A DNA stretch of 64,000 nt, from positions 27,652,001-27,716,000 of the forward strand of contig OZ024756.1 of the NCBI GenBank assembly GCA_964016885.1, in the 5' to 3' direction. The stretch comes from Eledone cirrhosa. Lineage: Eukaryota. The translations under genes and the position numbers were made by a program. Positions 7,716 to 35,271 of this stretch are shown in pieces; positions within the stretch are counted from its first letter, which is position 1, and every line of letters starts with the position of its first letter. The notes beneath the pieces were generated by a model. That model was not told the origin of the DNA. It did not search any database and saw only the letters and a list, made by a program, of their open reading frames with translations.

Positions 7716-7784
7716 TAGTGGATTGGCAGATCCGGTTAAGGGTCTGACGCCTTGCTTTGCAGCAAAGAGTTACGGCCCTTTATG
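7716..7784 (+). mobile_element. SINE family 2 head, truncated just before the B box
   Basis: GTGGATTGGCAG...GAGTTACGGCCCTTTATG aligns with the head of the full copy at 40612. Confidence 0.8.
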
Positions 7785-8292
7785 CACACACTCGTTCAGT
7801 GCCCGAGCATTGCTGACTTGGGGAGCTATGTCGAACAGTTGCTGTCGCGTGTATGACTGATCCGGTTATCGACTGAGTCCATTGTGCAGATGGTCTCGCC
7901 GTCTTCCTTTGAGGAGGAAGGGCAGGCGGTTTTCATCTACCTGGAGGCCATGGCGAAAGAGATTGTGTGGTGGACAAGGTTGAAAGGATTAAAGACAGAC
8001 ACTTTCCTCTTCGGCGAATCCCTAATTAACTTTTTCAAGTTTCACTTGAAGAGAAAAATCAGGGTGGAGAGGCAAGTGTTGCCCTCTAGCAAGTTTTTGA
8101 AAGGTGGGTGAATGTAGCGAGAATGGTCCGAGTAAACGGGACCGCTCTGAATATACGCCTGTAGTTTGAGAGATGGAAAAATTGAGAGAGGGCGCTTGCC
8201 CTGGTGGTCAGGGTGGCCGTGGTCTTTTGTGTGGTTTTCGCCACGAGTAACCCATTGGGGAATTTTTCATTGTTTCAATTTTCATTTTTATT

Positions 8293-8327
<35 letters not shown>

Positions 8328-8482
8328 TATGTTTCTATGTCTTTTTTTTTCTTTTCTTATATAAATAATAAAAACCTTTACACGCACAAGACCCACATCA
8401 TACCTTCCTGTGCCGTCTGTAATGTTTTTCTTGATGTCAGCCCTTGTGGCCAATAAAGAAATCATTATTATTATTATTATTT
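7783..8482 (+). mobile_element. Tx1-clade element A0, 5'-truncated and decayed
   Basis: Homologous to the ORF2 C-terminus (GQAVFIYLEAMAKEIVWWTRLKGLK) and 3' UTR; ends CCCTTGTGGCCAATAAAGAAATC-(ATT)n. Confidence 0.93.
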
Positions 8483-8870
8483 TTTATTTTCTTTCATTAT
8501 TGTTTCTGAGATATATGCCGAGTGTCTTCCTGACACCTAGGGCAAATAAATTCACAGTGTGCATTGGTAAGCCAGTTAATACAGCACATTGATTATAATA
8601 ATAATAAAAAAATTTATTATTATTATTATTATTATCATTATTATTATTATTATTATTGAATGCCATGGTTGACGGAGGCTCGGCTCTGTAAGGTATAGTA
8701 ATTTTTAACCGTTAAAACAATTGTAAATTGTTTAAAACTTGAACCAAATTGTTGATAAAGACACCCTCCTCCTCGTGAGAGGGGTCTTTCTGTCCGTTAT
8801 TTGGCCCTTCGGGGTTAAATAACCAGTTATTGGGGTTTTGTACCCAAAATTTCTTTTTAAACAAAAAAAC

Positions 8871-10972
8871 ATGGCTACCAAAAAAAAAAAAAATTTCATA
8901 CGTCACTCCCACTCATTCCGTCTTCTTCTTCCTCAATCATCACTACAGGAGAGAGAAGATTGTCTCTCTCCCTCCCTTCTTTAAATGTGTCTCTCTCCCT
9001 ACCTTCTCTTTCGCAAGCGACGAAAGAAAAGAAAAGTCTCGTGCAAAGCGTGCAAGGTTTCTCCACGACGACGACGACAGCGACGAAACAGGTGTGCGGG
9101 AAATACGAAAACCCAGTTCATTCGTCTGACGTCAGGAATAATAGCAGTAGCAGCCGTAATAACAACAGCAACAGTGACAATGAAAACAACAGTAGCAGCC
9201 GCAACAGCATCACCAGCAGCATAAACAACAACAGCATTAGCAGCAGCAACACCAACAACAACCACAGCAACAGCGGCGGAGGCAGTAGTCGTAGTACCTG
9301 CAGCAACAACAAAAGTACCAGCAGCTCTGACGACAACAACAACAGCAGAGAAAAACCAATCTCATTTGCAGGTATTGCGAAAAACCTGGAAACAATCCTC
9401 ATAACAAATGAGGAATTAGAGGAAGCGAAGAAGATGGTGACAAAGAACGGACACCGAGCAATCTGCAAGGCAGCGAAAAATTTTTTCGAAACCCAAGAGC
9501 ACTGTACGGTCACGTACCGTACAGTAAGTACAAAATCCCGTAGGGTGGAAAGAGCCACAGAGGCCCAAATACAAAAAGCCTTGGGGTCTGTGTGGCAGAG
9601 GAAAACGCACATCACCCGAGGCAAAAAATACGCCACCGTAGACGTACTTTTTGCCACACCCCAGGAGGCAAAGGCCCAATCAGTAGTGACCCTAAGGAGC
9701 GAGGAAATGGTGTTGGTGCCCTCCTACTGCGGGCAAAAAATTGTGAGGGTCAAACTGACCCACGTCCCCCCCGGAATGACCCCTTCTTGGCTGGCCGCGT
9801 CTGTCCTCGTCGGAATCGAGGACAAAACAACTGTACTGCAAGTACAGAAAAAAGTAAGAGAAGATTGGGTCGGCTCCTCCATTGAGATGCTAATCCAAAC
9901 CAACCAGGAGTGCATCGAAGCTATCCCGGATGTGATAGACTTCGATAACGGCACTCAACTGCCCATAAGTGTTGAGGGCAAACGCCCGAAATGCTTTCGC
10001 TGTGGATCGAAGACTCACCTCAGGGCCTTCTGCAACGAGAAGACCCTGAGAAAGGAGAAAACCCCCCTCCTCCCGAATCCGGTTCCACGGCTACCAGCAA
10101 CAGGACAAGCGGCAACCAGGAACGATAGGTCCGTGGCACCCATACCCACTCCACGGAAATCAAAGACAGCAGCAGCAGTGGAAATATTAACAACAACAAC
10201 AGCAATACCAAATGCAGCTGCAACAGAGACTCCAGTGCAAACATCACCAACAACAACAAGTGAAAGAGTGGAGCTGGTACCCCTCCCCGACCTTACAGAA
10301 TCAGACATGGAGTGTGAGGTGGGAGAGGGATGGCAAAAGGTCTCAAGAAGGCACAAACGCAGAAGCAGCGCATCGTCGCCTTTGAAAAGGGAGGAAAGAA
10401 ATGAGAAAAGGGTAAAGTCTACTGCAAAGAGACCCACAGCAGCAACACCACCAACACCATCACCACCCACACCAGCACCACCATCACCACCGGCGACAAC
10501 CCCACCGCCAACAACACCTTCAACACCACCACCACAAGCACCAACATCGCAAACACAACAACAAAACACACACACCCAGCAACAACGACAAGAAAATAGC
10601 AGAACCACACCCCACCCCCAGAAAAACAAATGCACGGCAATAAACACACACAACAAGAAACTAATGACTTACATAATTGAACACACAGACATTTCACAAC
10701 AGGACTACATAATACCAGCACCAATCAAAACGCCAACTAACATAAGACTGCTAAAAATAGCACAGAAACAATACACAAACATTAAAACGAAATTCCCCAA
10801 CGCAGTTGGTGATTTCAGGGACCTAGGAGGAACCATTAATCGAAGAGTATATTCAGACATTCTCTTAGAAGAGCCGACGACCAGCCGAAGGGACGATTCA
10901 ACGGTCCCTTCACCAGACGATCAAGTGAAAAGGGATGTAAAAACCATCCCTCCTCTACCAAAAATACGGTAA
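8871..10972 (+). CDS. A1 ORF1 (CCHC zinc-knuckle protein); frameshift in the poly-A run after the ATG
   Basis: ATG at 8871 matches the A2 start, but the A-run at 8880-8893 shifts the frame; main frame 8960-10972 has CFRCGSKTHLRAFC. Confidence 0.85.
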
Positions 10973-11007
10973 GTGGTCTTTCCCATCTTTTCCACTCTAT
11001 TTTAAAC

Positions 11008-14000
11008 ATGACCTCACTCAGAATAGGCAGCATAAATGCGCGTGGCTTGGGGTCGTCATGGAAGCAGGGTCACCTGCTCAACGACCTCAGGTCACTAAAC
11101 ATAGATGTAGTGGCCATCAGCGAGACCAGAATCTCCGAAGCACGGGCCTTCGCACCGATCTTCGGCGGCTACGATGTGTACGCATCTCCCAGCCGTCCTG
11201 GATCGGGTGGAGGAGTTGCTGTGCTTTTTCGGAGAGGTTTGGATCTCGCCATACGGGCCATCTTCCTGGACCCAGAGGGTAAGCTGGTGGTGCTGGACGT
11301 GACCAGCGGAGACGGGCAAGCTTTCAGGCTAGTGGCCGTCTATGCCCCGACAGGAGCAGGGCGGCCTGATTTCTTCCGGCGTCTGGAGACCTTTCTTGGA
11401 ACGTCGCGCTCTTTAGTGTTAGTGGGCGACTGGAACGGGATCTTAGATGCACGCTGGGACTGTGTGGGATTAGCGGATAGGGGTGGAGGGTGCAAGAGCC
11501 TCACCAACCTGCTCAGGCGTTTTGAACTGTCTGACAGGTACCGATTGGATTTCCCGAATGTGCCAATGTGGACTTGGACAAACCGCATAGGGTCATCCAG
11601 ATCATATCTAGATAGAGTATTTTGTAGGGAAATAGATAGGTCTAGCATAGGCTGTCCACAATTCAAGATAGTCAGCTACACGGACCACAAATTCGTGATC
11701 TGTGTGCTTGACTTAGATAGGCTTCATAGACGAGGACCCGGCTACTGGAAGCTAAACGCGTCCTTACCAGCGCGCAAGGCCTACAGAGACCGGATTAGCG
11801 AACTAGTTAAGCGGGCGTTGACGGGGGCCATCGTCAACAACAAGTGGTGGTTTGCTCTGAAAAGAGCGATTAGAATAGAATCGATTAGGTTTAGTAAGGC
11901 TTTAGCAATAGAGAAAAATAGAGCAGAGGGAGAACTAGTTAGAAAATTAGACGAGGCGCTTAGCAAAGGCATTGCGACCGACGTGCTTGCGGCGAAATTG
12001 GCCCTTGACCAATTCTTCAATGCAAAGCACGAAGGCTGCGTTGTCAGAGCTAGGGTGCGTGCTCTCAGACACGAGGGGACGAAAGCCGTTCAATGGGCCC
12101 GAGTGGCGGAGGCGCGTCGTGGCAACAAAGCCACGATCCGGTCTTTGGTGGACCACGACGGGCGCATGCTACTCGATCCCGGGCAAATGTGTGAAGCTTT
12201 TCAGCGACACTTCGCTCAGCTGTTCGGGGGCAGCGGGGGGCCGGGTAGAGGGATGGACTTTAGTGTCTACCTCGACGGACTGCCGCGGCTCTCGGCCACT
12301 GAGGCGAAGTGTTGCGAAAAGCCGATAACAGCCGCTGAAGTAAGGGAGGCAATGACTGGCTGCACAAGGGGTAAATCGCCTGGTTTGGATGGTCTGCCCT
12401 ATGAACTTTACGTACAGATGCCAGACTTGTTCGGAGGCCTCTTGGCGGACGTCTACTGCAACTGGCAACAGAACGGGAGAATTCCCAGTTCTGTGAGCCG
12501 AGGAGCGGTGGCACTGCTGAGAAAGGATCCGAACAAGGGGGATAACATAGACAATTTCCGGCCCATAACTCTGCTAAACACAGAGTTTAAGATTTTGGCC
12601 AAGGTGCTAGCAAAGAGGTTGGCGCTTGTCGTTGGTGGTCTGGTGGGAGAGGCGCAGACATGCGCCATTCCCGACAGATCCATCCACGACAACCTCCACC
12701 TCATGCGATACATCGTAGAGAGGGTAGCTAGGGAACCTGGCACGGGTGGGTCCTTGATCAATTTAGATCAGTCGAAAGCTTTCGATAGGGTCGACCATCG
12801 TTACCTAGCGGCAGTCCTGAGGGCGGCTGGCTTTGGGCCCGTCTTCAGAGGCTGGATCGCTGCCATGCACAGCGACATCTGCTCTGTGGTGAGAGTGAAC
12901 GGTCACCTGTCGGAACCGTTCAACATCATGCGCTCGGTCCGCCAAGGATGTCCCCTCTCGTCCCTCTTGTACGTATTGACTCTCGAGCCATTACTGCACA
13001 AACTGGAGACGTTGAGGGGAGTCCCGCGCGAACTAGGATGCGGAAGATCCGTGTCAGCATATGCGGACGATGTCACCGTAGTGGTGTCGAACGCCAAACA
13101 CATCGAGGCGATCGGCACTACACTAAGAGAATACGAAGCGGTGACAGGAGCAATGATCAACCAGGAAAAGTCAGTGGGCCTGCAGCTCGGCACCTGGAGA
13201 GGCAGGTCCATGCCGTCCAACAGCGTCGTCGGGCGCTGGACGGACGGACCGGTTAAATTGCTAGGGGTCTGGTTCGGTCCGGACCTCCAGACGGACAAAA
13301 ACTGGGACGAGGTGACGAGCAGGGTGGCTTCTCTCACCCAGAAATGGGCGGAGAGGAAGCTATCCCTGAAAGGTCGAGCGGAGGTGGCTAACGCGTACAT
13401 CGCGTCTGTCATCTGCTACCGCCTAACCGTCGTACCTTGTCCTAAGCCTCGCCTGACTGCGCTGGAGCGTTTGCTCTTTCGCTTTTTGTGGAAGGGACGT
13501 GCTCCGATGGTCAGGCGGTCCATCTGTTGTCAACACCCGCTACGTGGAGGGCTGGGCATGCCGTGGCTGATGATGCGCAGGCACGCGCTCAGGCTACGAC
13601 ATCTCCACCTCTTCCTCGACGGTGATCAGGTGTGGTCGCCGTTTGCTAGACGCGTTTTTCCCCAGCTCGTTTCCTTGACGGAGCTGCAGTCCTGGGTCAA
13701 GCGAAGACCGAGAGGGAGCGCCTGGAGACTGGAATGTCTTCAGGCGCTCACAGCCCTCGACCAATCGGGCAATGTGATCGGTGGAAACTCCACCTCGGCG
13801 TTCTATAGAGGATTAGTGGAGGGGAAGAGCGACGACGTACTTGGGGAAACTCTAGGCGTCGACGAAAATCAACTAGCCAATCTCTTCGGAAGAACCTTCG
13901 GGCCAGGGCCTATGGACAACTTCCAGAAATCTCTGGCCTGGCAGTGCTACCGAGGAGCCTTGCCAGTTCGGGATAAACTCTACAGGCATGGAGGTGCCGT

Positions 14001-14427
14001 CAGCCGGGCATGTCCGAGATGCGCGCAGGGCGACGAAACCGTCCTGCACGCACTCGTCCAGTGTCCGAAAATTGCTGACTTGTGGGTTTATGTCGAACAC
14101 CTGCTGTCGCGTTTAGGACGGATCCAGCTATCATCTGAGTCTATCGTGAGGATTGCCCCGCCCTCCTCCTTTAGCCGGGAAGGGCAGGCAGTTTTTATCT
14201 GTCTGGTGGCCATGGCGAAAGAGATAGTATGGTGGACACGTTTGAAAGGGCTGAAGACGAGCACTTACCTCTTCGGTGATGCTCTGATTGACTTTTTCAA
14301 ATTTCATTTGAAAAGGAAAATCAGAGTAGAGAAGGAAGTGCTCTCTTCCCAGCATTTTGTTGAAAGATGGGTGAGAGAAGCAAGAATGGCCCGAGTGAAT
14401 GGGCCGACTCTGAGTATATATCTGTAA
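11008..14427 (+). CDS. A1 ORF2: APE endonuclease + reverse transcriptase + CCHC zinc domain, 1139 aa
   Basis: SINARGL, SETR, GDWN, YLDR, TDH (APE); KSPGLDG, FRPITLLN, DQSKAFD, QGCPLS, YADD (RT); CPRC..ETVLHALVQC. Confidence 0.98.
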   Translation: MTSLRIGSINARGLGSSWKQGHLLNDLRSLNIDVVAISETRISEARAFAPIFGGYDVYASPSRPGSGGGVAVLFRRGLDLAIRAIFLDPEGKLVVLDVTSGDGQAFRLVAVYAPTGAGRPDFFRRLETFLGTSRSLVLVGDWNGILDARWDCVGLADRGGGCKSLTNLLRRFELSDRYRLDFPNVPMWTWTNRIGSSRSYLDRVFCREIDRSSIGCPQFKIVSYTDHKFVICVLDLDRLHRRGPGYWKLNASLPARKAYRDRISELVKRALTGAIVNNKWWFALKRAIRIESIRFSKALAIEKNRAEGELVRKLDEALSKGIATDVLAAKLALDQFFNAKHEGCVVRARVRALRHEGTKAVQWARVAEARRGNKATIRSLVDHDGRMLLDPGQMCEAFQRHFAQLFGGSGGPGRGMDFSVYLDGLPRLSATEAKCCEKPITAAEVREAMTGCTRGKSPGLDGLPYELYVQMPDLFGGLLADVYCNWQQNGRIPSSVSRGAVALLRKDPNKGDNIDNFRPITLLNTEFKILAKVLAKRLALVVGGLVGEAQTCAIPDRSIHDNLHLMRYIVERVAREPGTGGSLINLDQSKAFDRVDHRYLAAVLRAAGFGPVFRGWIAAMHSDICSVVRVNGHLSEPFNIMRSVRQGCPLSSLLYVLTLEPLLHKLETLRGVPRELGCGRSVSAYADDVTVVVSNAKHIEAIGTTLREYEAVTGAMINQEKSVGLQLGTWRGRSMPSNSVVGRWTDGPVKLLGVWFGPDLQTDKNWDEVTSRVASLTQKWAERKLSLKGRAEVANAYIASVICYRLTVVPCPKPRLTALERLLFRFLWKGRAPMVRRSICCQHPLRGGLGMPWLMMRRHALRLRHLHLFLDGDQVWSPFARRVFPQLVSLTELQSWVKRRPRGSAWRLECLQALTALDQSGNVIGGNSTSAFYRGLVEGKSDDVLGETLGVDENQLANLFGRTFGPGPMDNFQKSLAWQCYRGALPVRDKLYRHGGAVSRACPRCAQGDETVLHALVQCPKIADLWVYVEHLLSRLGRIQLSSESIVRIAPPSSFSREGQAVFICLVAMAKEIVWWTRLKGLKTSTYLFGDALIDFFKFHLKRKIRVEKEVLSSQHFVERWVREARMARVNGPTLSIYL

Positions 14428-14696
14428 ACTAAAGGTGGAAAACTGGGAGAGGGCACTTGCCTTGGTGGTCAGGGTCATTGTGGCTTTTTACTGGGCTTTC
14501 TCCACAAATGTCCCTCCGAAGTCTCCCCCCTATTGGGGAATTTTTCATTGTTATTTTCATTGTTATTTTTGTTACATCCTCTGTTTTTGTTTTTTTACAC
14601 GCAGAAATGCCCATTTGTACCGTCCTGCATTGTCCTGCACTGTCCTTAATGTCTACTTTATGTAAACCCTTGTGGTTAATAAAGAAATCATTATTA

Positions 14697-14731
<35 letters not shown>

Positions 14732-14944
14732 GAATGCCATGGTTGACGGAGGCTCGGCTCTGTAAGGTATAGTAATTTTTAACCGTTAAAACAATTGTAA
14801 ATTGTTTAAAACTTGAACCAAATTGTTGATAAAGACACCCTCCTCCTCGTGAGAGGGGTCTTTCTGTCCGTTATTTGGCCCTTCGGGGTTAAATAACCAG
14901 TTATTGGGGTTTTGTACCCAAAATTTCATTTTAAACAAAAAAAC

Positions 14945-17041
14945 ATGGCTACCAAAAAGAAATTTCATACGTCACTCCCACTCATTCCGTCTTCTTCTTC
15001 CTCAATCATCACTACAGCAGAGAGAAGATTGTCTCTCTCCCTCCCTTCTTTAAATGTGTCTCTCTCCCTCCCTTCTCTTTCGCAAGTGACGAAAGAAAAG
15101 AAAAGTCTCGTGCAAAGCGTGCAAGGTTTCTCCACGACGACGACGACAGCGACGAAACAGGTGTGCGGGAAATACGAAAACCCAGTTCATTCGTCTGACG
15201 TCAGGAATAATAGCAGTAGCAGCCGTAATAACAACAGCAACAGTGACAATGAAAACAACAGTAGCAGCCGCAACAGCATCACCAGCAGCATAAACAACAA
15301 CAGCATTAGCAGCAGCAACACCAACAACAACCACAGCAACAGCGGCGGAGGCAGTAGTCGTAGTACCTGCAGCAACAACAAAAGTACCAGCAGCTCTGAC
15401 GACAACAACAACAGCAGAGAAAAACCAATCTCATTTGCAGGTATTGCGAAAAATTTGGAAACAATCCTCATAACAAATGAGGAATTAGAGGAAGCGAAGA
15501 AGATGGTGACAAAGAACGGACACCGAGCAATCTGCAAGGCAGCGAAAAATTTTTTCGAAACCCAAGAGCACTGTACGGTCACGTACCGTACAGTAAGTAC
15601 AAAATCCCGTAGGGTGGAAAGAGCCACAGAGGCCCAAATACAAAAAGCCTTGGGGTCTGTGTGGCAGCGGAAAACGCACATCACCCGAGGCAAAAAATAT
15701 GCCACCGTAGACGTACTTTTTGCCACACCCCAGGAGGCAAAGGCCCAATCAGTAGTGACCCTAAGGAGCGAGGAAATGGTGTTGGTGCCCTCCTACTGTG
15801 GGCAAAAAATTGTGAGGGTCAAACTGACCCACGTCCCCCCCGGAATGACCCCTTCTTGGCTGGCCGCGTCTGTCCTCGTCGGAATCGAGGACAAAACAAC
15901 TGTACTGCAAGTACAGAAAAAAGTAAGAGAAGATTGGGTCGGCTCCTCCATTGAGATGCTAATCCAAACCAACCAGGAGTGCATCGAAGCTATCCCGGAT
16001 GTGATAGACTTCGATAACGGCACTCAACTGCCCATAAGTGTTGAGGGCAAACGCCCGAAATGCTTTCGCTGTGGATCGAAGACTCACCTCAGGGCCTTCT
16101 GCAACGAGAAGACCCTGAGAAAGGAGAAAACCCCCCTCCTTCCGAATCCGGCTCCACGGCTACCAGCAACAGGACAAGCGGCAACCAGGAACGATAGGCC
16201 CGTGGCACCCATACCCACTCCACGGAAATCAAAAACAGCAGCAGCAGTGGAAATACTAACAACAACAACAGCAATACCAAATGCAGCTGCAACAGAGACT
16301 CCAGTGCAAACATCACCAACAACAACAAGTGAAAGAGTGGAGTTGGTACCCCTCCCCGACCTCACAGAATCAGACATGGAGTGTGAGGTGGGAGAGAGAT
16401 GGCAAAAGGTCGTAAGAAGGCACAAACGCAGAAGCAGCGCATCGTCGCCTTTGAAAAGTGAGGAAAGAAATGAGAAAAGGGTAAAGTCTACTGCAAAGAG
16501 ACCCACAGCAGCAACAACACCAACACCATCACCACCCACACTAGCGCCACCATCACCACCGGCGACAACCCCACCGCCAACAACACCTTCAACACCACCA
16601 CCACAAGCACCAACATCGCAAACACAACAACAAAACACACACACCCAGCAACAACGACAAGAAAATAGCAGAACCACACCCCACCCCCAGAAAAACAAAT
16701 GCACGGCAATAAATACACACAACAAGAAACTAATGACTTACATAATTGAACACACAGACATTTCACAACAGGACTACATAATACCAGCACCAATCAAAAC
16801 GCCAACTAACATAAGACTGCTAAAAATAGCACAGAAACAATACACAAATATTAAAACGAAATTCCCCAACGCAGTTGGTGATTTCAGGGACCTAGGAGGA
16901 ACCATCAATCGAAGAGTATACTCAGACATTCTCTTAGAAGAGCCGACGACCAGCCGAAGGGACGATTCAACGGTCCCTTCACCAGACGATCAAGTGAAAA
17001 GGGATGTAAAAACCATCCCTCCTCTACCAAAAGTACGGTAA
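14945..17041 (+). CDS. A2 ORF1, 698 aa (Ser/Asn-rich N-terminus, probable RRM-like region, CCHC knuckle, Pro/Thr-rich tail)
   Basis: Open from ATG GCT ACC at 14945; CFRCGSKTHLRAFC; basic RRHKRR patch. Confidence 0.93.
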   Translation: MATKKKFHTSLPLIPSSSSSIITTAERRLSLSLPSLNVSLSLPSLSQVTKEKKSLVQSVQGFSTTTTTATKQVCGKYENPVHSSDVRNNSSSSRNNNSNSDNENNSSSRNSITSSINNNSISSSNTNNNHSNSGGGSSRSTCSNNKSTSSSDDNNNSREKPISFAGIAKNLETILITNEELEEAKKMVTKNGHRAICKAAKNFFETQEHCTVTYRTVSTKSRRVERATEAQIQKALGSVWQRKTHITRGKKYATVDVLFATPQEAKAQSVVTLRSEEMVLVPSYCGQKIVRVKLTHVPPGMTPSWLAASVLVGIEDKTTVLQVQKKVREDWVGSSIEMLIQTNQECIEAIPDVIDFDNGTQLPISVEGKRPKCFRCGSKTHLRAFCNEKTLRKEKTPLLPNPAPRLPATGQAATRNDRPVAPIPTPRKSKTAAAVEILTTTTAIPNAAATETPVQTSPTTTSERVELVPLPDLTESDMECEVGERWQKVVRRHKRRSSASSPLKSEERNEKRVKSTAKRPTAATTPTPSPPTLAPPSPPATTPPPTTPSTPPPQAPTSQTQQQNTHTQQQRQENSRTTPHPQKNKCTAINTHNKKLMTYIIEHTDISQQDYIIPAPIKTPTNIRLLKIAQKQYTNIKTKFPNAVGDFRDLGGTINRRVYSDILLEEPTTSRRDDSTVPSPDDQVKRDVKTIPPLPKVR

Positions 17042-17076
17042 GTGGTCTTTCCCATCTTTACCACTCTATTTTAAAC

Positions 17077-20000
17077 ATGACCTCACTCAGAATAGGCAGC
17101 ATAAATGCGCGTGGCTTGGGGTCGTCATGGAAGCAGGGTCACCTGCTCAACGACCTCAGGTCACTAAACATAGATGTAGTGGCCATCAGCGAGACCAGAA
17201 TCTCCGAAGCACGGGCCTTCGCACCGATCTTCGGCGGCTTCGATGTGTACGCATCTCCCAGCCGTCCTGGATCCGGTGGAGGAGTTGCTGTGCTTTTTCG
17301 GAGAGGTTTGGATCTCGCCATACGGGCCATCTTCCTGGACCCAGAGGGTAAGCTGGTGGTGCTGGACGTGACCAGCGGAGACGGGCAAGCTTTCAGGCTA
17401 GTGGCCGTCTATGCCCCGACAGGAGCAGGGCGGCCTGATTTCTTCCGGCGTCTGGAGACCTTTCTTGGAACGTCCCGCTCTTTAGTGTTAGTGGGCGACT
17501 GGAACGGGATCTTAGATGCACGCTGGGACTGTGTGGGATTAGCGGATAGGGGTGGAGGGTGCAAGAGCCTCACCAACCTGCTCAGGCGTTTTGAACTGTC
17601 TGACAGGTACCGATTGGATTTCCCGAATGTGCCAATGTGGACTTGGACAAACCGCATAGGGTCATCCAGATCATATCTAGATAGAGTATTTTGTAGGGAA
17701 ATAGATAGGTCTAGCATAGGCTGTCCACAATTCAAGATAGTCAGCTACACGGACCACAAATTCGTGATCTGTGTGCTTGACTTAGATAGGCTTCATAGAC
17801 GAGGACCCGGCTACTGGAAGCTAAACGCGTCCTTACCAGCGCGCAAGGCCTACAGAGACCGGATTAGCGAACTAGTTAAGCGGGCGTTGACGGGGGCCAT
17901 CGTCAACAACAAGTGGTGGTTTGCTCTGAAAAGAGCGATTAGAATAGAATCGATTAGGTTTAGTAAGGCTTTAGCAATAGAGAAAAATAGAGCAGAGGGA
18001 GAACTAGTTAGAAAATTAGACGAGGCGCTTAGCAAAGGCATTGCGACCGACGTGCTTGCGGCGAAATTGGCCCTTGACCAATTCTTCAATGCAAAGCACG
18101 AAGGCTGCGTTGTCAGAGCTAGGGTGCGTGCTCTCAGACACGAGGGGACGAAAGCCGTTCAATGGGCCCGAGTGGCGGAGGCGCGTCGTGGCAACAAAGC
18201 CACGATCCGGTCTTTGGTGGACCACGACGGGCGCATGCTACTCGATCCCGGGCAAATGTGTGAAGCTTTTCAGCGACACTTCGCTCAGCTGTTCGGGGGC
18301 AGCGGGGGGCCGGGTAGAGGGATGGACTTTAGTGTCTACCTCGACGGACTGCCGCGGCTCTCGGCCACTGAGGCGAAGTGTTGCGAAAAGCCGATAACAG
18401 CCGCTGAAGTACGGGAGGCAATGACTGGCTGCACAAGGGGTAAATCGCCTGGTTTGGATGGTCTGCCCTATGAACTTTACGTACAGATGCCAGACTTGTT
18501 CGGAGGCCTCTTGGCGGACGTCTACTGCAACTGGCAACAGAACGGGAGAATTCCCAGTTCTGTGAGCCGAGGAGCGGTGGCACTGCTGAGAAAGGATCCG
18601 AACAAGGGGGATAACATAGACAATTTCCGGCCCATAACTCTGCTAAACACAGAGTTTAAGATTTTGGCCAAGGTGCTAGCAAAGAGGTTGGCGCTTGTCG
18701 TTGGTGGTCTGGTGGGAGAGGCGCAGACATGCGCCATTCCCGACAGATCCATCCACGACAACCTCCACCTCATGCGATACATCGTAGAGAGGGTAGCTAG
18801 GGAACCTGGCACGGGTGGGTCCTTGATCAATTTAGATCAGTCGAAAGCTTTCGATAGGGTCGACCATCGTTACCTAGCGGCAGTCCTGAGGGCGGCTGGC
18901 TTTGGGCCCGTCTTCAGAGGCTGGATCGCTGCCATGCACAGCGACATCTGCTCTGTGGTGAGAGTGAACGGTCACCTGTCGGAACCGTTCAACATCATGC
19001 GCTCGGTCCGCCAAGGATGTCCCCTCTCGTCCCTCTTGTACGTATTGACTCTCGAGCCATTACTGCACAAACTGGAGACGTTGAGGGGAGTCCCGCGCGA
19101 ACTAGGATGCGGAAGATCCGTGTCAGCATATGCGGACGATGTCACCGTAGTGGTGTCGAACGCCAAACACATCGAGGCGATCGGCACTACACTAAGAGAA
19201 TACGAAGCGGTGACAGGAGCAATGATCAACCAGGAAAAGTCAGTGGGCCTGCAGCTCGGCACCTGGAGAGGCAGGTCCATGCCGTCCAACAGCGTCGTCG
19301 GGCGCTGGACGGACGGACCGGTTAAATTGCTAGGGGTCTGGTTCGGTCCGGACCTCCAGATGGACAAAAACTGGGACGAGGTGACGAGCAGGGTGGCTTC
19401 TCTCACCCAGAAATGGGCGGAGAGGAAGCTATCCCTGAAAGGTCGAGCGGAGGTGGCTAACGCGTACATCGCGTCTGTCATCTGCTACCGCCTAACCGTC
19501 GTACCTTGTCCTAAGCCTCGCCTGACTGCGCTGGAGCGTTTGCTCTTTCGCTTTTTGTGGAAGGGACGTGCTCCGATGGTCAGGCGGTCCATCTGTTGTC
19601 AACACCCGCTACGTGGAGGGCTGGGCATGCCGTGGCTGATGATGCGCAGGCACGCGCTCAGGCTACGACATCTCCACCTCTTCCTCGACGGTGATCAGGT
19701 GTGGTCGCCGTTTGCTAGACGCGTTTTTCCCCAACTCGTTTCCTTGACGGAGCTGCAGTCCTGGGTCAAGCGAAGACCGAGAGGGAGCGCCTGGAGACTG
19801 GAATGTCTTCAGGCGCTCACAGCCCTCGACCAATCGGGCAATGTGATCGGTGGAAACTCCACCTCGGCGTTCTATAGAGGATTAGTGGAGGGGAAGAGCG
19901 ACGACGTACTTGGGGAAACTCTAGGCGTCGACGAAAATCAACTAGCCAATCTCTTCGGAAGAACTTTCGGGCCGGGGCCTATGGACAACTTCCAGAAATC

Positions 20001-20496
20001 TCTGGCCTGGCAGTGCTACCGAGGAGCTTTGCCAGTTCGGGATAAACTCTACAGGCATGGAGGTGCCGTCAGCCGGGCATGTCCGAGATGCGCGCAGGGC
20101 GACGAAACCGTCCTGCACGCACTCGTCCAGTGTCCGAAAATTGCTGACTTGTGGGTTTATGTCGAACACCTGCTGTCGCGTTTAGGACGGATCCAGCTAT
20201 CATCTGAGTCTATCGTGAGGATTGCCCCGCCCTCCTCCTTTAGCCGGGAAGGGCAGGCAGTTTTTATCTGTCTGGTGGCCATGGCGAAAGAGATAGTATG
20301 GTGGACACGTTTGAAAGGGCTGAAGACGAGCACTTACCTCTTCGGTGATGCTCTGATTGACTTTTTCAAATTTCATTTGAAAAGGAAAATCAGAGTAGAG
20401 AAGGAAGTGCTCTCTTCCCAGCATTTTGTTGAAAGATGGGTGAGAGAAGCAAGAATGGCCCGAGTGAATGGGCCGACTCTGAGTATATATCTGTAA
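17077..20496 (+). CDS. A2 ORF2: APE-RT-zinc finger, 1139 aa
   Basis: Same motifs as A1 ORF2; two visible amino-acid differences (GGY/FDV, LQT/MDK). Confidence 0.98.
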   Translation: MTSLRIGSINARGLGSSWKQGHLLNDLRSLNIDVVAISETRISEARAFAPIFGGFDVYASPSRPGSGGGVAVLFRRGLDLAIRAIFLDPEGKLVVLDVTSGDGQAFRLVAVYAPTGAGRPDFFRRLETFLGTSRSLVLVGDWNGILDARWDCVGLADRGGGCKSLTNLLRRFELSDRYRLDFPNVPMWTWTNRIGSSRSYLDRVFCREIDRSSIGCPQFKIVSYTDHKFVICVLDLDRLHRRGPGYWKLNASLPARKAYRDRISELVKRALTGAIVNNKWWFALKRAIRIESIRFSKALAIEKNRAEGELVRKLDEALSKGIATDVLAAKLALDQFFNAKHEGCVVRARVRALRHEGTKAVQWARVAEARRGNKATIRSLVDHDGRMLLDPGQMCEAFQRHFAQLFGGSGGPGRGMDFSVYLDGLPRLSATEAKCCEKPITAAEVREAMTGCTRGKSPGLDGLPYELYVQMPDLFGGLLADVYCNWQQNGRIPSSVSRGAVALLRKDPNKGDNIDNFRPITLLNTEFKILAKVLAKRLALVVGGLVGEAQTCAIPDRSIHDNLHLMRYIVERVAREPGTGGSLINLDQSKAFDRVDHRYLAAVLRAAGFGPVFRGWIAAMHSDICSVVRVNGHLSEPFNIMRSVRQGCPLSSLLYVLTLEPLLHKLETLRGVPRELGCGRSVSAYADDVTVVVSNAKHIEAIGTTLREYEAVTGAMINQEKSVGLQLGTWRGRSMPSNSVVGRWTDGPVKLLGVWFGPDLQMDKNWDEVTSRVASLTQKWAERKLSLKGRAEVANAYIASVICYRLTVVPCPKPRLTALERLLFRFLWKGRAPMVRRSICCQHPLRGGLGMPWLMMRRHALRLRHLHLFLDGDQVWSPFARRVFPQLVSLTELQSWVKRRPRGSAWRLECLQALTALDQSGNVIGGNSTSAFYRGLVEGKSDDVLGETLGVDENQLANLFGRTFGPGPMDNFQKSLAWQCYRGALPVRDKLYRHGGAVSRACPRCAQGDETVLHALVQCPKIADLWVYVEHLLSRLGRIQLSSESIVRIAPPSSFSREGQAVFICLVAMAKEIVWWTRLKGLKTSTYLFGDALIDFFKFHLKRKIRVEKEVLSSQHFVERWVREARMARVNGPTLSIYL

Positions 20497-20757
20497 ACTA
20501 AAGGTGGAAAACTGGGAGAGGGCACTTGCCTTGGTGGTCAGGGTCATTGTGGCTTTTTACTGGGCTTTCTCCACAAATGTCCCTCCGAAGTCTCCCCCCT
20601 ATTGGGGAATTTTTCATTGTTATTTTCATTGTTATTTTTGTTACATCCTCTGTTTTTGTTTTTTTTACACGCAGAAATGCCCATTTGTACCGTCCTGCAT
20701 TGTCCTGCACTGTCCTTAATGTCTACTTTATGTAAACCCTTGTGGTTAATAAAGAAA

Positions 20758-20800
<43 letters not shown>

Positions 20801-21116
20801 CGTGTGAATGGGCCTACTCTGACCAGGCGCCTATAGGCTAGCTAACTTGAGGAGAGGGGTGCTCTCCCTGGGTGCCCTAGAAGCGCAGGGTGGTTCAGAA
20901 TTGGTGGGGTACCTGAGTCACCCCTGGGTCGTCCACCCCCAATAGGGAAATTTATTTTGTTATATTTATGCATAGTTTATTTTATATTTTTTATATCTTC
21001 ATTGTTGAATTGGTCTTGCCATTGTGCACTTTTACTCGACCTTATTGTAAACCCCCACGGACCCTGTCTTTGTATTGTCCCCTAGATGTCGGCCCTTGTG
21101 GCCAATAAATGAAATC
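20801..21116 (+). mobile_element. Tx1-clade 3'-end fragment A3 (different subfamily)
   Basis: Begins RVNGPTLTRRL* (compare RVNGPTLSIYL*); ends CCCTTGTGGCCAATAAATGAAATC. Confidence 0.85.
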
Positions 21117-21333
21117 AGAGTTCAAATCCCGCCGAGGTTAACTTTGCCTTTCATCCTTACGGGGACGATAAAATAAAGTACCAGTAATACACTGGGTATT
21201 TGCTGGCCTTGTGCCAAAAGTAGAAACAATTATTATTATTATCGACCTTACGGGGACGATAAAATAAAGTACCAGTAATACACTGGGTATTTGCTGGCCT
21301 TGTGCCAAAAGTAGAAACAATTATTATTATTAT
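21117..21333 (+). mobile_element. SINE family 2 body plus tandem partial duplicate, each ending in (ATT)n
   Basis: GAGTTCAAATCCCGCCGAGG...GTAGAAACAATTATTATT; 3' ~85 bp repeated. Confidence 0.9.
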
Positions 21334-22444: not shown

Positions 22445-22697
22445 TAAATATATATATATATAGATAAATTTCTATTTATTTGCCACGAGGGCACAAAAGA
22501 AGGGGACAAATACACAGTGGGGGAGTTTACATAAATAGAGTAAAGAAAAAGGAATAACAATAATAATATAACAATAAAAAGTCCTCAAAAGGGAGGGGGC
22601 GTGTTGGGGATTGCACATACCCCCGAAAAGTGTGCAACTCTTTTCGCGGGGGAAGCCCAGAGAGGAGGCGCTCCCCCTTTCCTCTTCACTTCTTCAC

Positions 22698-25600
22698 CTA
22701 CAGAACAATGTAGAGAGAAGGCCCATTTACACGGGCCATTCTCGCTTCTTTCACCCACCTTTCATAAAACTGTCTGGGACCAAGCACTTCTCTCTCCATC
22801 CTGATCCTTCTTCCGAAGTGGTATCGGAAGAAGTAAACCAGGTGATGGCCGGAGAGAAAGTCACCCGACCTCAGACCTTTCAGGCGCGTCCACCACACAA
22901 CCTCTTTCATCATGGCTATTACGCACAGAAAGACCGCCTCTGCTTCATTTCTGAAGGGAGGAGGCGGCTTGATGTTCACCACAGACTCGGCGGTTAATCG
23001 AATCGGCGCCACACGCGACAGCAGTCGTTCGACGTAGCCCCACAGATCGGCAACGCCCGGGCAGTGTACCAGTGCATGCGCAACGGTTTCCTCGTCGCGC
23101 ACGCATCTGGGACAGATCTTTTTCGCGGGATCCCTGCCCGGGCGCCCGTGTCTGTAGAGCTTTTCTCGAACGGGCAGAGCCCCCCGGTAACACTGCCAGG
23201 CTAGGGACCTCTGGAAGTTGTCCATGGGTCCCGGGCCGAAAGTTCTACCGAACAGGCTGGCCAGTTCGGCCTCCTCCATGCCTAGCGACTCTCCAAGGGT
23301 GTCGTCGCCCTTGCTAGCCACCAACCCTCTATAGAATGTCGAGGTGGATTCTCCACTGATAGTCGGGTCCGCTTGCCAGATAGCCGTGAGCGCCTGGGCA
23401 CACTCGGTGTGCCAGTTGCCCAGTTTTCTCGGTCTTTGCTTCACCCAGGATTGCAGTTCGGTGAGCGAGACGAGCTGTGGGAAGGCTCGCCTCACAAACG
23501 GGGCCCACACCGGCTGACCGTTGAGGAATACCTGTAGATGCCGTAGCCTCAATGCGTGCCTACGCATCAACAGCCACGGCATACCCAGCCCTCCTTTCGA
23601 AGGGTGCTGGCAGCAGATGGATCTCCTCACCATGGGAGGCCGCTTCTTCCAGAGGAACTGGAAGAGCATGCGTTCCATGATGGTGAGCTTTTCCTTGGGG
23701 CAAGGCACGACGGTCAGGCGGTAGTAGATGACGGACGCTATGTAAGCGTTTGTCACCTCCGCCCGACATTTCAGTGATAGTTTGCACTTGGCCCACTTCT
23801 GGGTCAGCGCAAACACCCTGCTCGTCACCTCGCCCCAATTCTTCTCCACCTGGAGGTCCGGTCCGAACCAGACCCCGAGCAGCTTCACCTGGCCCTCCGT
23901 CCACCGCCCGACGACACCGTCTAACGGCATCGGTTTGCCCCTCCACGTTCCGAGTTGCAAACCGACTGACTTGTCCTGGTTCAGCCTAGCCCCCGTCAGC
24001 CTTTCGTATTCCCCCAGTAGGGTGGCGATCGCCCCGATTTCCGAGGCGTCCGCCACCATTACTGTTACGTCGTCGGCATAGGCCGAGACCGCTTTGTGCA
24101 ATCCCGGTTCCAGGGGTATGCCCCGCAGCAACTCCAACTTCCGCAGCAGTGGCTCGAGAGTCAATACGTACAGAAGGGAGGAGAGGGGGCACCCCTGTCT
24201 GATGGACCGGGTGATTTGAAACGGCTCCGAGAGGTAGCCGTTTACTTTAATCCTAGAGTAGATGTTGCCACTGTGCATGGCAGAAATCCAGCCCCTGAAA
24301 ACGGGTCCGAAGCCCGCCGCCGCTAGCACCGCATCCAGGTAACCATGGTCGACCCTATCGAACGCCTTAGATTGATCCAAGTTGATCAGGGCCCCACCAA
24401 AGCCGGGTTCGTTGCCAACCCTCTCTATGATGTATCGCATGAGGTGGAGGTTGTCGTGAATGGACCTGGACGGGATAGCGCATGTCTGCGCGTCTCCCAC
24501 CAAACCACCCACCACAAGCGCCAACCTCTTCGCCAACACCTTGGCCAAAATCTGTAACTCTGCATTCAGCAGAGTTATGGGCCTAAAGTTACTTAAGTCG
24601 TCCCCCTTGCTCTCGTCCTTCCTCACTAGCGTGACCACGCCCTTGGTCACAGAACAGGGAATTCTCCCGTTCTGTTGCCAGTTGCAATAGACAGCCTCGA
24701 GGAGTTCGGAGAACAAGACCGGCATAGCCAAATAAAGTTCGTATGGTAGACCATCGAGACCCGGAGATTTGCGTCTGCTGCATTGGCTGAGCGCTTCCCC
24801 GATTTCAGTGGCTGTGATTGGCCTTTCGCAGCACTCCGCTTCGCCGCTCGAAAGACGCGGTAGACCGTCGAGGTATGGACCGAAGTCCACATCCCCGTCC
24901 GGCCCCCCGCCCCCTCCGAACAGTCGAGCAAAGTGCCTTTGAAAGGCCTCGCACATTCGCTCAGGTTCAAGGATCACCCGTCCATCCTGGTCTCGCAAAG
25001 ACCGAATGGTGGATTTAATCCCACTCTTGGCTTCTGTTACGCGGGCCCAGCTAACAGCTTTGGTCCCCTCGTTTCCTAAAGCACGTATTTTACTTCGGAC
25101 AACGCAGCCTTCGTGCTTCGCGTCAAAGAACTGGCTCAACGCCGTTCTCGCCGCTAACACTCTGGCTACGTCTCCGCTCCTAATCGCCTCTTCTAGTTTA
25201 TCTGTTAACTCCCTTTCCTTCCTATTTCTATTCGCCGCTAGTTCCTTACTGTAACCTATCGAACTTACTCTAATCTCTCTCTTTAGAGATACCCACCACC
25301 TACTGTTGACGATCGCTCCCGTCAACCGCATCTTAACTAAGCTACTAATCCGGTTCCTGTAATCTTTCTTTGCCGGCAAGGACAAGTTCATCTTCCAGTA
25401 ACCGGGACCCTGTCTATGCGTTCTATCAAGGTTGACCACGCAGGTCACTAATTTGTGATCTGAATAGCCAACCATGATCAATTCTGGACAACTAAATACG
25501 TCCCTATCCTTACTCCTAACCAAAAACCTATCTAGGTACGATCTAGATTGTCCACTGCGGTTTGCCCAGGTCCAGGTTGGCGCAGTTGGACAATCTAGTC

Positions 25601-26137
25601 GAAATCTATCGACCAGGTCGAATCGATCGAGTAACCCCTTGAGGCTGCTACACCCCCCTCTATCGGGACATGCCCCTGCATAGTCCCAACGCGCATCTAG
25701 GATTCCATTCCAGTCCCCCACTAAAAGCAGGGAACGCGACGTTCCTAGAAAAGTCTCCAGTCGCTGGAAGAAGTCGGCTCTTTCAGCCCCGAAGGGGGCA
25801 TAAAGACCGACCAGTCTGAAAGCCCCACCTTCACCGCCTCCAACGTCCAGCACCAGTAATCGACCCCTCGGGTCCGAGTGAACAATCTGTACGTCGAGAG
25901 CCAGACGTTTATCCAGCAGTACGGCAACTCCCCCCCCCCGCCTCCGGGTTGACAGAGAGATGCGTGCATCTCAAAGTCATCGAAGGCGGGAGCCAGCTGT
26001 CGCACGCTGCTGATCCGACTCTCGCAAACAACCATCACATCTATACTTCGTGACCTGAGGTCACTTAGTAGCTTTGCTTGCTTCCAAGCTGAGCCCAGGC
26101 CACGCGCGTTCAAACAGCCAACTCTCAATTGATCTAT
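22698..26137 (-). pseudogene. B1 ORF2 (APE-RT-Zn), disrupted
   Basis: Start apparently ATG>ATA (IDQLRVGC vs B2 MDVLRVGC); frameshift at the G homopolymer ~25930-25939; SDH, YADD and CPRC motifs intact. Confidence 0.92.
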
Positions 26138-27960
26138 TTTGGTGTTGAAAGTGAAGAAAGAAAAGCACCTACCTCTCCGGGCTGTGTAATTTCCATGGCG
26201 TCAGGTGTGTTGGGTGGAGGGATGTTTTGTGGTGGTGTGGGGGTGCCCGAGTGTGGTGGGGTTGGGGTGTTTGGAGTTGTGTCAGGGAGAGGGGAGGTTA
26301 TGGGGAAATCTTTCAAGAGGACGCGATTTAACGGTTTTAAACAGGGGGGGGGGGGGCTCACGTCCTGTCTAAATTGTTCTTTTAAGGAACGATAAAGGTC
26401 CAGAGGGACCTTTATCATTTTTAAATGGGTGAAGTTCTCTGTTGAGATAAAGTTTGGCCCCTCGGTCTGCACCAAAGGGCTATTGTTTATTAATTTAAAC
26501 AGTTTTTTGTTTTCTTTATTTATATATGTGTATTGCAATGTCTTTTTTTGTGATGCTGTCAATGTTTCGGAGAGGGGAGGCGCAGATTTATTTTTGTTTG
26601 TTGAGGGTGGGGTGCTTTTTATTGGAGTTGGTGTTTGTGTGTGGGTTATTTGTGGTGTGCTGGGTGTGTGCTTTCTTTTTTTTCTTTTAACTTGTCTGAA
26701 GGCTTCTCCTCCTTCTTCTTCAGAAGTTGGGGGAAACTCTTCAGCGCTAGGTGGGAGGGACGTCGTGTCTGGTTGTTTTTTTTTTGCGGGAGGGGTAGAT
26801 TTGTTGCTGTTTTTTTTATTATTTGTTTGGAATGCGTTTTGTGGTGGTGGTGGTGCTGTTTGTGTCATGCTTGTGGTTGGTGGTGGTGGTGTTTGTGTTG
26901 GTGATGGTGGTGGTGATTTTTGTGTCGTGCTTGTGTTTGGTGCTGGTGGTGGTGATGTTTGTGTTGTGCTTGGTGGTGTTTGTATTTTGTTTGCTGTGTG
27001 TGGTATTAGTGTATTTTTGGAGGTGGGTGGTGTTGGTGTACTGTTTGTGGTGGGTGTGGGCAATAGTCCTTTTTGGGGGACACGTTTCGGGCAGTTAGCC
27101 TTAATGTGTCCCCTTTCCGTGCATAAATAGCATGCTGGTCTTCTCCCCTCTACAATTATATCTATTGGGGTGAGCTCATCCAGCCAGATGCGATCCGGGA
27201 TTTGTGCTATTCTTTCGGGCCTCATTTGGACTAGTAGGTCGAGGCCCATTCCCAGGAACGCATCTCCGGATGCCTTCCCCATTGACAGCACTGTGTCCTC
27301 GCCCATGTCTATGAAGCCAGCAATAGCCCACCAGAAGTCCATTGTGGGCAGCATTGTTTGTATTTTTACTCTCTGTGTTCTTCTACCCATGTAGGAGGGA
27401 TAGAAGCTGTATGTTGTCGATGAGAGTGGGCTTAGGGAAAGCTTCTCCGCCGTTTCCTTGTCTTTTGTTAGGACCGAAATGCTGCCATAGAGTCGGTCCT
27501 TTCGTATGAAGAGAATATTCTTCATATAGTCTTTTAGGACCAACTCTATCTCCATTTAGCTGGGCTGTGCTGGCTTTCTTGTTTGGTTTAGGATTGTTCT
27601 GAAGAGAACTGTGTTCTCTGTTCTCGCTTTCTTGAATTCTGGGGGGGAGTTAATGGAAAACATTCCGTTCTCCCCCAAAACAATGTGTTTCTTTGCTTCG
27701 GCCAGTTTTTCTCTGGCGGCCGTTAGGTCAATTGGTGTGTATGTAATGGATTGTTTTATTTTCTGGGCGAAAGTTGCCCTGTTGTTATTTGTATTATTTT
27801 CTGTTTGTTTGTTTTCCGTTTGCTCATTTTCCTTAACATTTGTTTTTTTATTTTCTTTGTTTGTTTCGTTGTCTAATTTTGTTGTAATTATTTTTTGTTC
27901 TTCAGACTTGGGGGGCGTGGCAGAGCTAATGGCAGACATGTCTGCCATCTTTTCCGCCAT
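26134..27960 (-). pseudogene. B1 ORF1, one in-frame stop
   Basis: Segments 27556-27987 and 26134-27555 are in frame across a TAA (QPS*M vs B2 QPSQA); knuckle CYLCTERGHIKANC. Confidence 0.9.
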
Positions 27961-28388
27961 GCTGCCAAGAACGAAATTTTTCGGCAAAAATAGATATTCA
28001 TTTTACCCCCTAAAAAGGGGGTAAATGCAAAAATGTTTCCCTAAATAACAGGGGTTAGTGTTCCAAATGTGTTGCACTGAAAAATGTATCCGGTACTTAC
28101 AATAGTAAGGGTAAATCCCGATGGAATAGCGGAGCCGATGTGAAGCGTGTCTTACTCTATCAAGATAGATAGATTTCTTTATTTACCATAAAGGCATAAA
28201 AAGAAGGGACAAATACAAAGGGGGAGTTTACATATAATCGAGTAAAAAGGGTGTAACATGAAAATAATCGAAAATAACCTCAAAAGGGAGGGGACGTGAT
28301 GAGGGTTGCACACACCCCCGAAAAAGTGTGCAATCCTTTGCCCGGGGAGCACATGGAGAAGGTGCTCCCCTCTCCTTTACTTCTTTAC

Positions 28389-31300: not shown

Positions 31301-31828
31301 CGACCAAGTTAAAACGGTCGAGTAACCCCTTGAGGCTGTTACACCCCCCTCTATTAGGACATGCTCCTGCATAGTCCCAACGTGCATCCAGGATGTCATT
31401 CCAATCCCCCGCTAGAAGCAGGGAACGCGACGTTCCCAGAAAAGTCTCCAAACGCTGGAAGAAGTCGGGCCGTTCAGCTCCGAAAGGGGAGTAGACGGTG
31501 ACCAGTCTCAAGGCCGCACTTTCACTACTGCCAACGTCTAGCACCAACAAACGACCCCCCCCGGGTCCGAGTGCACAACCTGTACGGCAAGACCCAGGTG
31601 TTTTTGCAGCAGTACGATAACCCCACCCCCACCTCCAGGTTGACAGAGAGATGCATGCACCTCAAAGTCATCGAAGGTGGGGGCCAGCTGCCGCACGACG
31701 CTGATTCGAGTCTCACAGATAACCATTACATTTATACTACATGACCTGAGGTCATTTAGAAGCTTTGCTTGCTTCCAAGTTGAGCCCAGGCCACGTGCAT
31801 TCAAACATCCTACTCTTAACACATCCAT
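28389..31828 (-). pseudogene. B2 ORF2 (APE-RT-Zn), frameshift plus nonsense codon
   Basis: Three collinear segments 31538-31828, 29586-31550, 28389-29573; TAG replaces Glu in WTEG. Confidence 0.93.
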
Positions 31829-31861
31829 GTGGGTGGCAGAGCCAAAGGAGAGTGTAGAGAC

Positions 31862-35086: not shown

Positions 35087-35271
35087 ATAGATAGATAGAT
35101 AGATAGATAGAGAGGGGTAACATGAATACGTCATATGATAGGCAGTAATATGAGGTGACATTTAATAATGATGTGATCAACAATCTTTACAAATCGATGT
35201 AATTGAACCAAACTAGGTTACCGACCATTCACGACGGCACGTATAAGATGGAGCTTCGATTTCCACATCAA

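What the first reader, a model, noticed from the sequence alone, without database searches (positions are those of the whole stretch)
8656..20799. A1 and A2 look like independent recent insertions rather than a neutral tandem duplication; A2 is a candidate active element
In ORF2, I count by eye at least seven synonymous differences (TCG/TCC twice, AGG/CGG, CAG/CAA, ACC/ACT, CCA/CCG, GCC/GCT) against two replacements. ORF1 replacements cluster in the disordered Pro/Thr region. That pattern suggests purifying selection on separate source copies. A2 has both ORFs intact with catalytic motifs present, so it is a candidate site-specific integration tool.
Basis: partly seen in the sequence, partly recalled or inferred. 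Interest (0 to 1): 0.7.

Follow-up and report, generated by a model that had tools for sequence, protein, structure and literature searches.

The report
Retrotransposons stacked in an ATT repeat
Two 99% identical, full-length jumping genes, probably from an octopus relative, sit head-to-tail between ATT repeats inside a split short element; their mostly silent differences indicate separate source copies that likely landed one after another in the same repeat, a known habit of this group and not a ready precision tool.

Summary
The counts hold. ORF2 differs by 7 synonymous and 2 replacement changes (dN/dS about 0.1). With ORF1 (16:11), a neutral duplication is rejected (P 3e-7 to 3e-4). At four sites other samples appear to carry both letters. 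A1 and A2 therefore come from separate source lineages.

They are L1/Tx1-like LINEs; the best named relative is from Argonauta (69%). New here: the whole 13.3-kb stack (fragment U, A1, A2, fragment C) lies inside one cleanly split SINE that has no ATT there, so U's tail likely made the landing site. A second stack of three sister families (78-82% alike) sits on TATC repeats. Outside contigs mostly show ATT before the 5' end.

A2 is intact, but activity is untested, both ORF2 replacements lie on A2's side, and A1's only visible defect is a frameshift in a 14-A run. Microsatellite-targeting Tx1 elements are known (Kibi, Koshi). I found no paper with ATT as a Tx1 target, but this scan already noted AAT and GATA stacks elsewhere in this genome. 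The tool claim is weak: ATT repeats are many sites, and U sits off-target.

The parts
7716..7784 (+). 5' half of a split SINE (positions 45-107 of the intact copy at 46220-46460, minus strand)
7783..8481 (+). U: older, degraded, 5'-truncated relative (ORF2 end + 3' UTR, 75% to A) with (ATT)6 tail at 8464-8481; 5' junction is SINE, not ATT
8482..8613 (.). about 130 bp unassigned; reads as ending in (AAT)n on the minus strand; possibly a 3' fragment of another element (not tested)
8614..8657 (+). (ATT)n tract before A1, one ATC interruption
8658..14689 (+). A1 body, full length
8871..10972 (+). A1 ORF1; frameshifted after the first ATG by a 14-A run at 8880-8893
11008..14427 (+). A1 ORF2, intact (APE endonuclease, RT, zf-RVT)
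14690..14731 (+). (ATT)14 between A1 and A2, one GTT interruption: A1's tail and A2's 5' flank
14732..20759 (+). A2 body, full length; 5' UTR 213 nt
14945..17041 (+). A2 ORF1, 698 aa: low-complexity N-terminus, likely RNA-binding core, CCHC knuckle, Pro/Thr region
   Evidence: Atlas lead: zf-CCHC 0.93, ZCCHC3-type RNA-binding 0.90
17077..20496 (+). A2 ORF2, 1139 aa: Exo_endo_phos 22-210, RVT_1 511-754, zf-RVT 974-1026
20760..20800 (+). pure (ATT)13 + AT tail of A2, also the 5' flank of C
20801..21117 (+). C: 317-bp 3' fragment of another related family (last ORF2 codons + 3' UTR)
21114..21240 (+). 3' half of the split SINE (positions 108-234 of the intact copy), ATT tail; a second short SINE piece follows to 21334
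22460..28162 (-). B1: full-length sister family, broken ORFs, tail TATC/TA; 5' end abuts B2's TATC tail
28163..33986 (-). B2: full-length sister family (82% to B1), broken ORF2, (TATC)n tail
33987..35086 (-). B3: 5'-truncated sister family (78-79% to B1 and B2)
35087..35111 (-). (CTAT)6 tract directly before B3

Best explanation
A1 and A2 are two full-length copies of one young L1/Tx1-like LINE family whose differences are mostly silent, so they likely derive from separate replicating source copies and likely inserted one after another, by target-primed reverse transcription, into the same (ATT)n tract. Shown: the anatomy, the synonymous excess, the ATT tracts at every A junction, and the split SINE around the whole stack. 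Inferred order: an older relative (U) inserted into a SINE at a non-ATT site and left an (ATT)n tail; that tail, and each later tail, served as target for C, A2 and A1. Inferred mechanism, from known APE-type LINEs: ORF2's endonuclease nicks the AAT strand, the RNA's (AUU)n end pairs with the freed DNA end and primes copying, and each insertion leaves ATT on both sides, so the target is rebuilt and copies stack in one orientation. Sister families B1-B3 do the same on (TATC)n. The ORF1/ORF2 difference in divergence likely reflects recombination between source lineages.
For: dN/dS 0.10-0.12 in ORF2 and 0.22-0.28 in ORF1; neutral model P 3e-7 to 3e-4. Of 17 A1/A2 sites listed, at 16542, 16906, 19974 and 20028 run X4 has A1's letter while 72-100% of X1 depth does not; four more sites have 8-34% non-A1 depth. 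6 of 7 related pieces in the window begin directly after an ATT or TATC tract, including two 5'-truncated pieces (C, B3) that cannot have brought a 5' repeat from their own start. B1, B2 and B3 are only 78-82% alike yet head-to-tail, which no recent duplication explains. In run X6 the only contig over the 5' end runs through all 12 ATT letters given, at depth 34.8 against 46.7 in the body (about 30 for flank words if k=31). In X1, 2 of the 3 upstream loose ends shown are ATT and none shown is non-ATT at the element start. The SINE halves meet with no gap in three intact copies. Tx1 families on microsatellites and sequential tandem insertion are described in PMC4494074 (passages).
Against: U's 5' junction is SINE, not ATT, and C's 3' end has no ATT run, so targeting is not strict. 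One X1 loose end at 14797 is non-ATT, and 6 loose-end rows were hidden. The six junctions are not independent, since each tail is made by a neighbour. Contigs drop rare flanks, which favours ATT. At 9 of the 17 listed sites A2's letter is nearly absent from X1 (3.1% or less), 189 rows were hidden, and 'not A1' could be a third letter or a repeat mutation. No genome-wide flank count was possible. No empty or single-copy allele was seen or tested.
Confidence: 0.75

Rival explanations
1. One insertion event with a template jump: the reverse transcriptase finished one RNA (A2) and went on to the 3' tail of a second RNA from another source copy (A1). The sources are separate but the event is single.
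For: Same orientation, only an ATT tail between the copies, both full-length and young. Template jumping by LINE RTs is recalled, not from a call.
Against: Needs two complete 6-kb copies in a row. The interrupted ATT tracts around A1 against the pure tract after A2 hint weakly at different ages. The B stack of three distant families needs no jump.
Confidence: 0.1
2. Tandem duplication of one copy by unequal crossing-over between ATT tracts, followed by gene conversion from dispersed family members; or a crossover joining two alleles that each carried a different copy.
For: Uneven divergence: 29 substitutions in the first 2.3 kb against 9 in ORF2. A1 and A2 share 12 listed ORF2 and 3' UTR letters against X4. 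ATT tracts flank both copies.
Against: Differences span 14928-20028, so conversion would have to overwrite about 5 kb. The shared letters are also expected from one species' sub-lineage.
Confidence: 0.1
3. Neutral tandem duplication, or two alleles of one insertion joined by the assembler.
For: 99.2% identity, tandem layout, an N gap elsewhere in the window. No read spanning both copies could be examined.
Against: Both predict dN/dS near 1; observed 23 of 36 synonymous, P at most 3e-4. The outer flanks are the two halves of one SINE, so unrelated loci were not joined.
Confidence: 0.04

Closest known systems
Kibi (TC)n and Koshi (TTC)n of teleosts; crocodilian Tx1 families on (TTCC)n/(TTTC)n (PMC4494074, PMC3812793; passages read)
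   Same: APE-type LINE with preference for a microsatellite; tandem copies by sequential insertion are described for the Tx1-mobilised SINEU-3.
   Different: Target here is (ATT)n, and (TATC)n for sister families; host is probably an octopod; kinship with Kibi/Koshi was not tested because their sequences were not on hand.
Tx1 ORF2 of Xenopus laevis (YTX2, P0091)
   Same: APE-RT-zinc-knuckle ORF2; 29% identity over 83% of the query, E 3.7e-92.
   Different: Tx1L targets the DNA transposon Tx1D (PMC4494074). In the quick tree the octopod group is not resolved with P0091.
Dong (TAA)n elements of Bombyx, Anopheles and Biomphalaria (PMC3812793 passage)
   Same: Same trinucleotide repeat class as target.
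   Different: Dong is an R4-clade element (labelled Dong-R4 in PMC13282606) with a single ORF and a restriction-like endonuclease (recalled); A has two ORFs and an APE domain.
L1-Tx1 families of Octopus vulgaris (PMC13282606 passage: 13 recently active families, 421 insertions)
   Same: Young L1-Tx1 elements in an octopus genome are already reported.
   Different: No target preference appeared in the passages seen; whether A is one of those families was not testable (supplements not read).
Human LINE-1 ORF2p (PDB 9k6g, 8c8j)
   Same: Best solved relative, E 2.8e-52 over residues 5-854.
   Different: L1 has only weak target preference (PMC3812793 passage) and a poly(A) tail (recalled).

Membership tests
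L1 group non-LTR retrotransposon (APE type) | ORF2 with N-terminal APE endonuclease, RT and C-terminal zinc knuckle | tested here: met
   Pfam Exo_endo_phos, RVT_1, zf-RVT; best solved match L1 ORF2p
L1 group non-LTR retrotransposon (APE type) | separate ORF1 with nucleic-acid-binding motifs; no LTRs; simple-repeat 3' tail; 5'-truncated copies | tested here: met
   698-aa ORF1 with CX2CX4HX4C; no Pfam hit; Atlas leads 0.90-0.93; tails and truncated relatives
Tx1 clade | RT groups with known Tx1 elements in a tree | tested here: inconclusive
   Named hits include YTX2. Quick tree: A, B1, B2, P0001, P0002 form one group (SH-aLRT 99), unresolved against the Xenopus Tx1 group; no L1 outgroup; careful search unfinished
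Microsatellite-specific Tx1 (Kibi/Koshi-like) | target repeat in more than 20% of flanks (criterion in PMC4494074) | tested here: inconclusive
   2 of 2 A copies and 6 of 7 related pieces in the window; contigs of X1, X6 and X7 cover the ATT flank; no genome-wide count
Microsatellite-specific Tx1 (Kibi/Koshi-like) | endonuclease cuts the repeat specifically | not testable with these tools
   needs a cleavage assay
Active (retrotransposition-competent) element | intact ORFs and catalytic residues | tested here: met
   A2: N10, E39, D141, N143, D202, D226, H227; YADD 685-688; C1002, C1005, H1014, C1019 (catalytic roles recalled)
Active (retrotransposition-competent) element | transcribed and mobile; insertion polymorphic | not testable with these tools
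   no usable RNA or raw-read run
Dong/R4 | single ORF with restriction-like endonuclease (recalled) | tested here: not met
   two ORFs and an APE domain

The most novel reading that the evidence does not exclude
In this octopod lineage the target repeat is chosen mainly by pairing of the RNA's 3' tail with the nicked DNA, not by the endonuclease. Sister families with 57-61% identical endonucleases and same-length hairpin loops have split ATT and TATC between them, each matching its own tail, and each insertion makes a new landing pad. Swapping the tail would retarget the element.
Probability: 0.15. Interest if true: 0.65.

Novelty: new member of a known kind. Interest (0 to 1): 0.3.

Why it matters
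It is a clean case of a retrotransposon tail seeding a hotspot: 13.3 kb of insertions built up at one point of a SINE that had no target repeat. It shows that several source lineages of a young L1/Tx1-like family coexist in a probable octopod genome and probably recombine. A and B give a natural pair for asking whether the endonuclease or the RNA tail picks the microsatellite, a mechanism that PMC3812793 (2013) calls not well understood. As an integration tool it is a poor prospect beside single-site elements such as R2.

Tried and rejected
No whole genome is held, so there was no genome-wide flank or copy analysis. The run search listed 20 holders and no RNA holder; this says nothing on expression. 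Raw Hi-C runs X22 and X23 laid 0 reads and X10 laid 0 contigs: no test. The metagenome scan gave 80 loci at only 24-41% identity; none of the 11 that reach the ORF2 end showed a simple repeat of 12 nt or more within 900 nt, several ending too soon; too distant to use. The viral contig scan found nothing. Pfam gave no hit for A's ORF1. The tree did not settle Tx1 against L1. Look-ups of earlier notes by sequence and by nearness were empty. A paper search on synonymous excess between copies returned nothing; the logic that such excess marks selection in source lineages rests on my own knowledge. PMC9004415 does not mention ZCCHC3. Target-site duplications cannot be defined inside the repeats. 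CpG hypermutation does not explain the synonymous excess (6 of 26 transitions at CpG).

Full report
Observation. Self-alignment shows 8602-14730 matching 14677-20800 at 99.17%. Each copy begins right after an (ATT)n tract and ends in one: A1 8658-14689, A2 14732-20759, with 42 nt of ATT between them. They differ by 39 substitutions (one inside the A-run), a 5-nt length difference in that A-run and a 1-nt indel in the 3' UTR. ORF2 has exactly 7 synonymous and 2 replacement differences; ORF1 from codon 7 has 16 and 11, with 8 replacements in the Pro/Thr stretch and none in the core. Under five neutral mutation models, up to strong transition and tenfold CpG bias, P(at least 7 of 9) in ORF2 is 0.001-0.011 and P(at least 23 of 36) overall is 3e-7 to 3e-4. 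From my own knowledge, inserted copies decay neutrally, so this excess must have built up in replicating source lineages before insertion. It rejects a neutral duplication and two alleles of one insertion alike.

Identity. ORF2 carries APE endonuclease, RT and zf-RVT domains. The closest proteins are an unnamed NCBI one (79%) and one from Argonauta hians (69%); Xenopus Tx1 ORF2 is at 29%. The host is therefore probably an octopod (inference). Human L1 ORF2p is the best solved relative. ORF1 has a CCHC knuckle and an Atlas lead to ZCCHC3-type RNA-binding domains (0.90, a lead only). A quick tree of 39 RT rows groups A with B1, B2 and the two close hits (SH-aLRT 99) but leaves the link to Xenopus Tx1 unresolved; the careful search did not finish and there was no L1 outgroup. 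I call it L1/Tx1-like.

Other samples. Twenty runs from 16 studies hold the stretch or part of it. Laying X1 and X4 on A2 listed 17 of the 38 A1/A2 sites outside the A-run; 189 rows were hidden. At 16542, 16906, 19974 and 20028, X4 has A1's letter while 92, 100, 86 and 72% of X1 depth does not; at four more sites 8-34% does not. The simplest reading is that both letters exist elsewhere in the family, though a third letter or repeat mutation is not excluded. At the other 9 sites A2's letter is nearly absent from X1. One X4 contig (16414-18783) has A1's letter at 10 and, by subtraction, A2's at 4 of 14 sites. Both ORF2 replacements and the spacer change at 17060 lie on A2's side, so A1's ORF2 is nearer the outside majority. 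The replacements look tolerated: relatives have F or Y near position 55 and mostly L, I or V at 762. X4 has an in-frame 3-nt longer A-run, so the run varies in length; A1's frameshift may be slippage or a sequencing error. Synonymous divergence is 0.032 in ORF1 against 0.008 in ORF2 (p 0.0016), which suggests recombination between source lineages.

Surroundings. Upstream lies U, a degraded 3' fragment (75% to A) with an (ATT)6 tail. Downstream lies C, a 317-bp 3' fragment of another family that starts right after A2's tail. The sequence before U is the 5' half of a common SINE and the sequence after C is its 3' half: positions 45-107 and 108-234 of an intact copy, with the right half starting at the matching position in all three intact copies tried. 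Intact copies have no ATT at that point. So 13.3 kb accumulated at one nucleotide of a SINE, the outer flanks belong together, and U's tail likely created the target. On the minus strand a second stack runs (CTAT)6, B3 (truncated), TATC tail, B2, TATC tail, B1; these are 78-82% alike and about 70% like A. Six of the seven pieces start directly after a repeat tract; U does not. These junctions are not independent.

Target test. On a 180-nt stretch holding 12 nt of ATT and the 5' end, the only X6 contig over the start ran through the ATT with no mismatch at depth 34.8, against 46.7 in the body (about 30 for flank words if k=31). X1 and X7 also had high depth over the ATT. X1's upstream loose ends were two ATT and one non-ATT at an internal position; 6 rows were hidden and X10 laid nothing. 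This supports a strong preference, not strictness, and contigs under-count rare flanks.

Mechanism. The likely route is target-primed reverse transcription into (ATT)n with the RNA tail pairing at the nick, which rebuilds the target at each round (inferred from known APE LINEs). I put separate source lineages at about 0.9 and sequential targeted insertion at 0.75. A single event with a template jump, or duplication plus conversion, remain at about 0.1 each. A and B1 endonucleases are 57-61% identical against 75% in RT, and the hairpin region before the SYLDR motif has the same length (its role in specificity is recalled). Whether endonuclease or tail sets the target is open.

Known and new. 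Passages of PMC4494074 list Tx1 targets (Tx1D, U2, TC, TTC, TTCC/TTTC) and describe tandem copies by sequential insertion. A passage of PMC3812793 lists TAA as the target of Dong elements. Passages of PMC13282606 count 13 recently active L1-Tx1 families in Octopus vulgaris, and passages of PMC8967140 list L1-Tx1 as expanded in coleoids. Of PMC9004415 I saw passages, of no use here; all other papers I saw as search listings only. Seven searches showed no Tx1 family on (ATT)n. Repbase, Dfam, subscription papers and supplements were not seen, and the family may be catalogued there. This scan had already noted AAT and GATA stacks, the SINE-like 3' end and an ORF2-end pairing on other pieces of this genome; those notes are leads, not support.

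Verdict. A2 is intact but untested, and the tool claim is weak. New member of a known kind; interest 0.3.

Noticed in passing
window 17020-17109 with 20465-20539 (A2); 10951-11040 with 14396-14470 (A1): RNA around the ORF1 stop and spacer is predicted to pair with RNA around the ORF2 stop: -59.8 (A2) and -63.2 (A1) kcal/mol, against at best -43 in 80 control windows. A2's own change at 17060 adds a mismatch. The ORF1 stop lies in a splice-donor-like CG|GTAAGT.
   Followed up: partly
window 20726-20765, 8431-8468, 21083-21118, 21196-21232, 22465-22505(-): A, U, C, B1 and the SINE all fold a small 3' hairpin with a 4-5 nt loop (-3 to -7.6 kcal/mol, no shuffle control), and the SINE shares the ATT tail; a possible SINE-LINE partnership.
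   Followed up: partly
window 22460-35111 (-): Second stack of three divergent sister families on (TATC)n; B1 and B2 both start TGATAG, which with the tail before it reads CTATC-TT-GATAG, a short inverted repeat.
   Followed up: partly
window 8482-8613: About 130 bp between U's tail and A1 that ends in (AAT)n on the minus strand; possibly a fragment of an opposite-strand element.
   Followed up: no
window 35544-39474: 63-bp satellite, 62.6 copies, 96% matches, starting next to a SINE piece.
   Followed up: no
window 43147-44605: 40-bp satellite, 36.8 copies.
   Followed up: no
window 21794-22175: Near-perfect inverted repeat of about 380 bp (96%), MITE-like, with a related piece at 58315-58584.
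   Followed up: no
window 61315-61514: 200-N assembly gap, with near-duplicate sequence on both sides (60415-61205 against 61516-62281, 95%).
   Followed up: no
runs X1-X14: Near-identical A sequence is held by runs under 11 different organism codes at shares 0.24-0.86; a wide spread that could reflect shared ancestry, labels or transfer.
   Followed up: no
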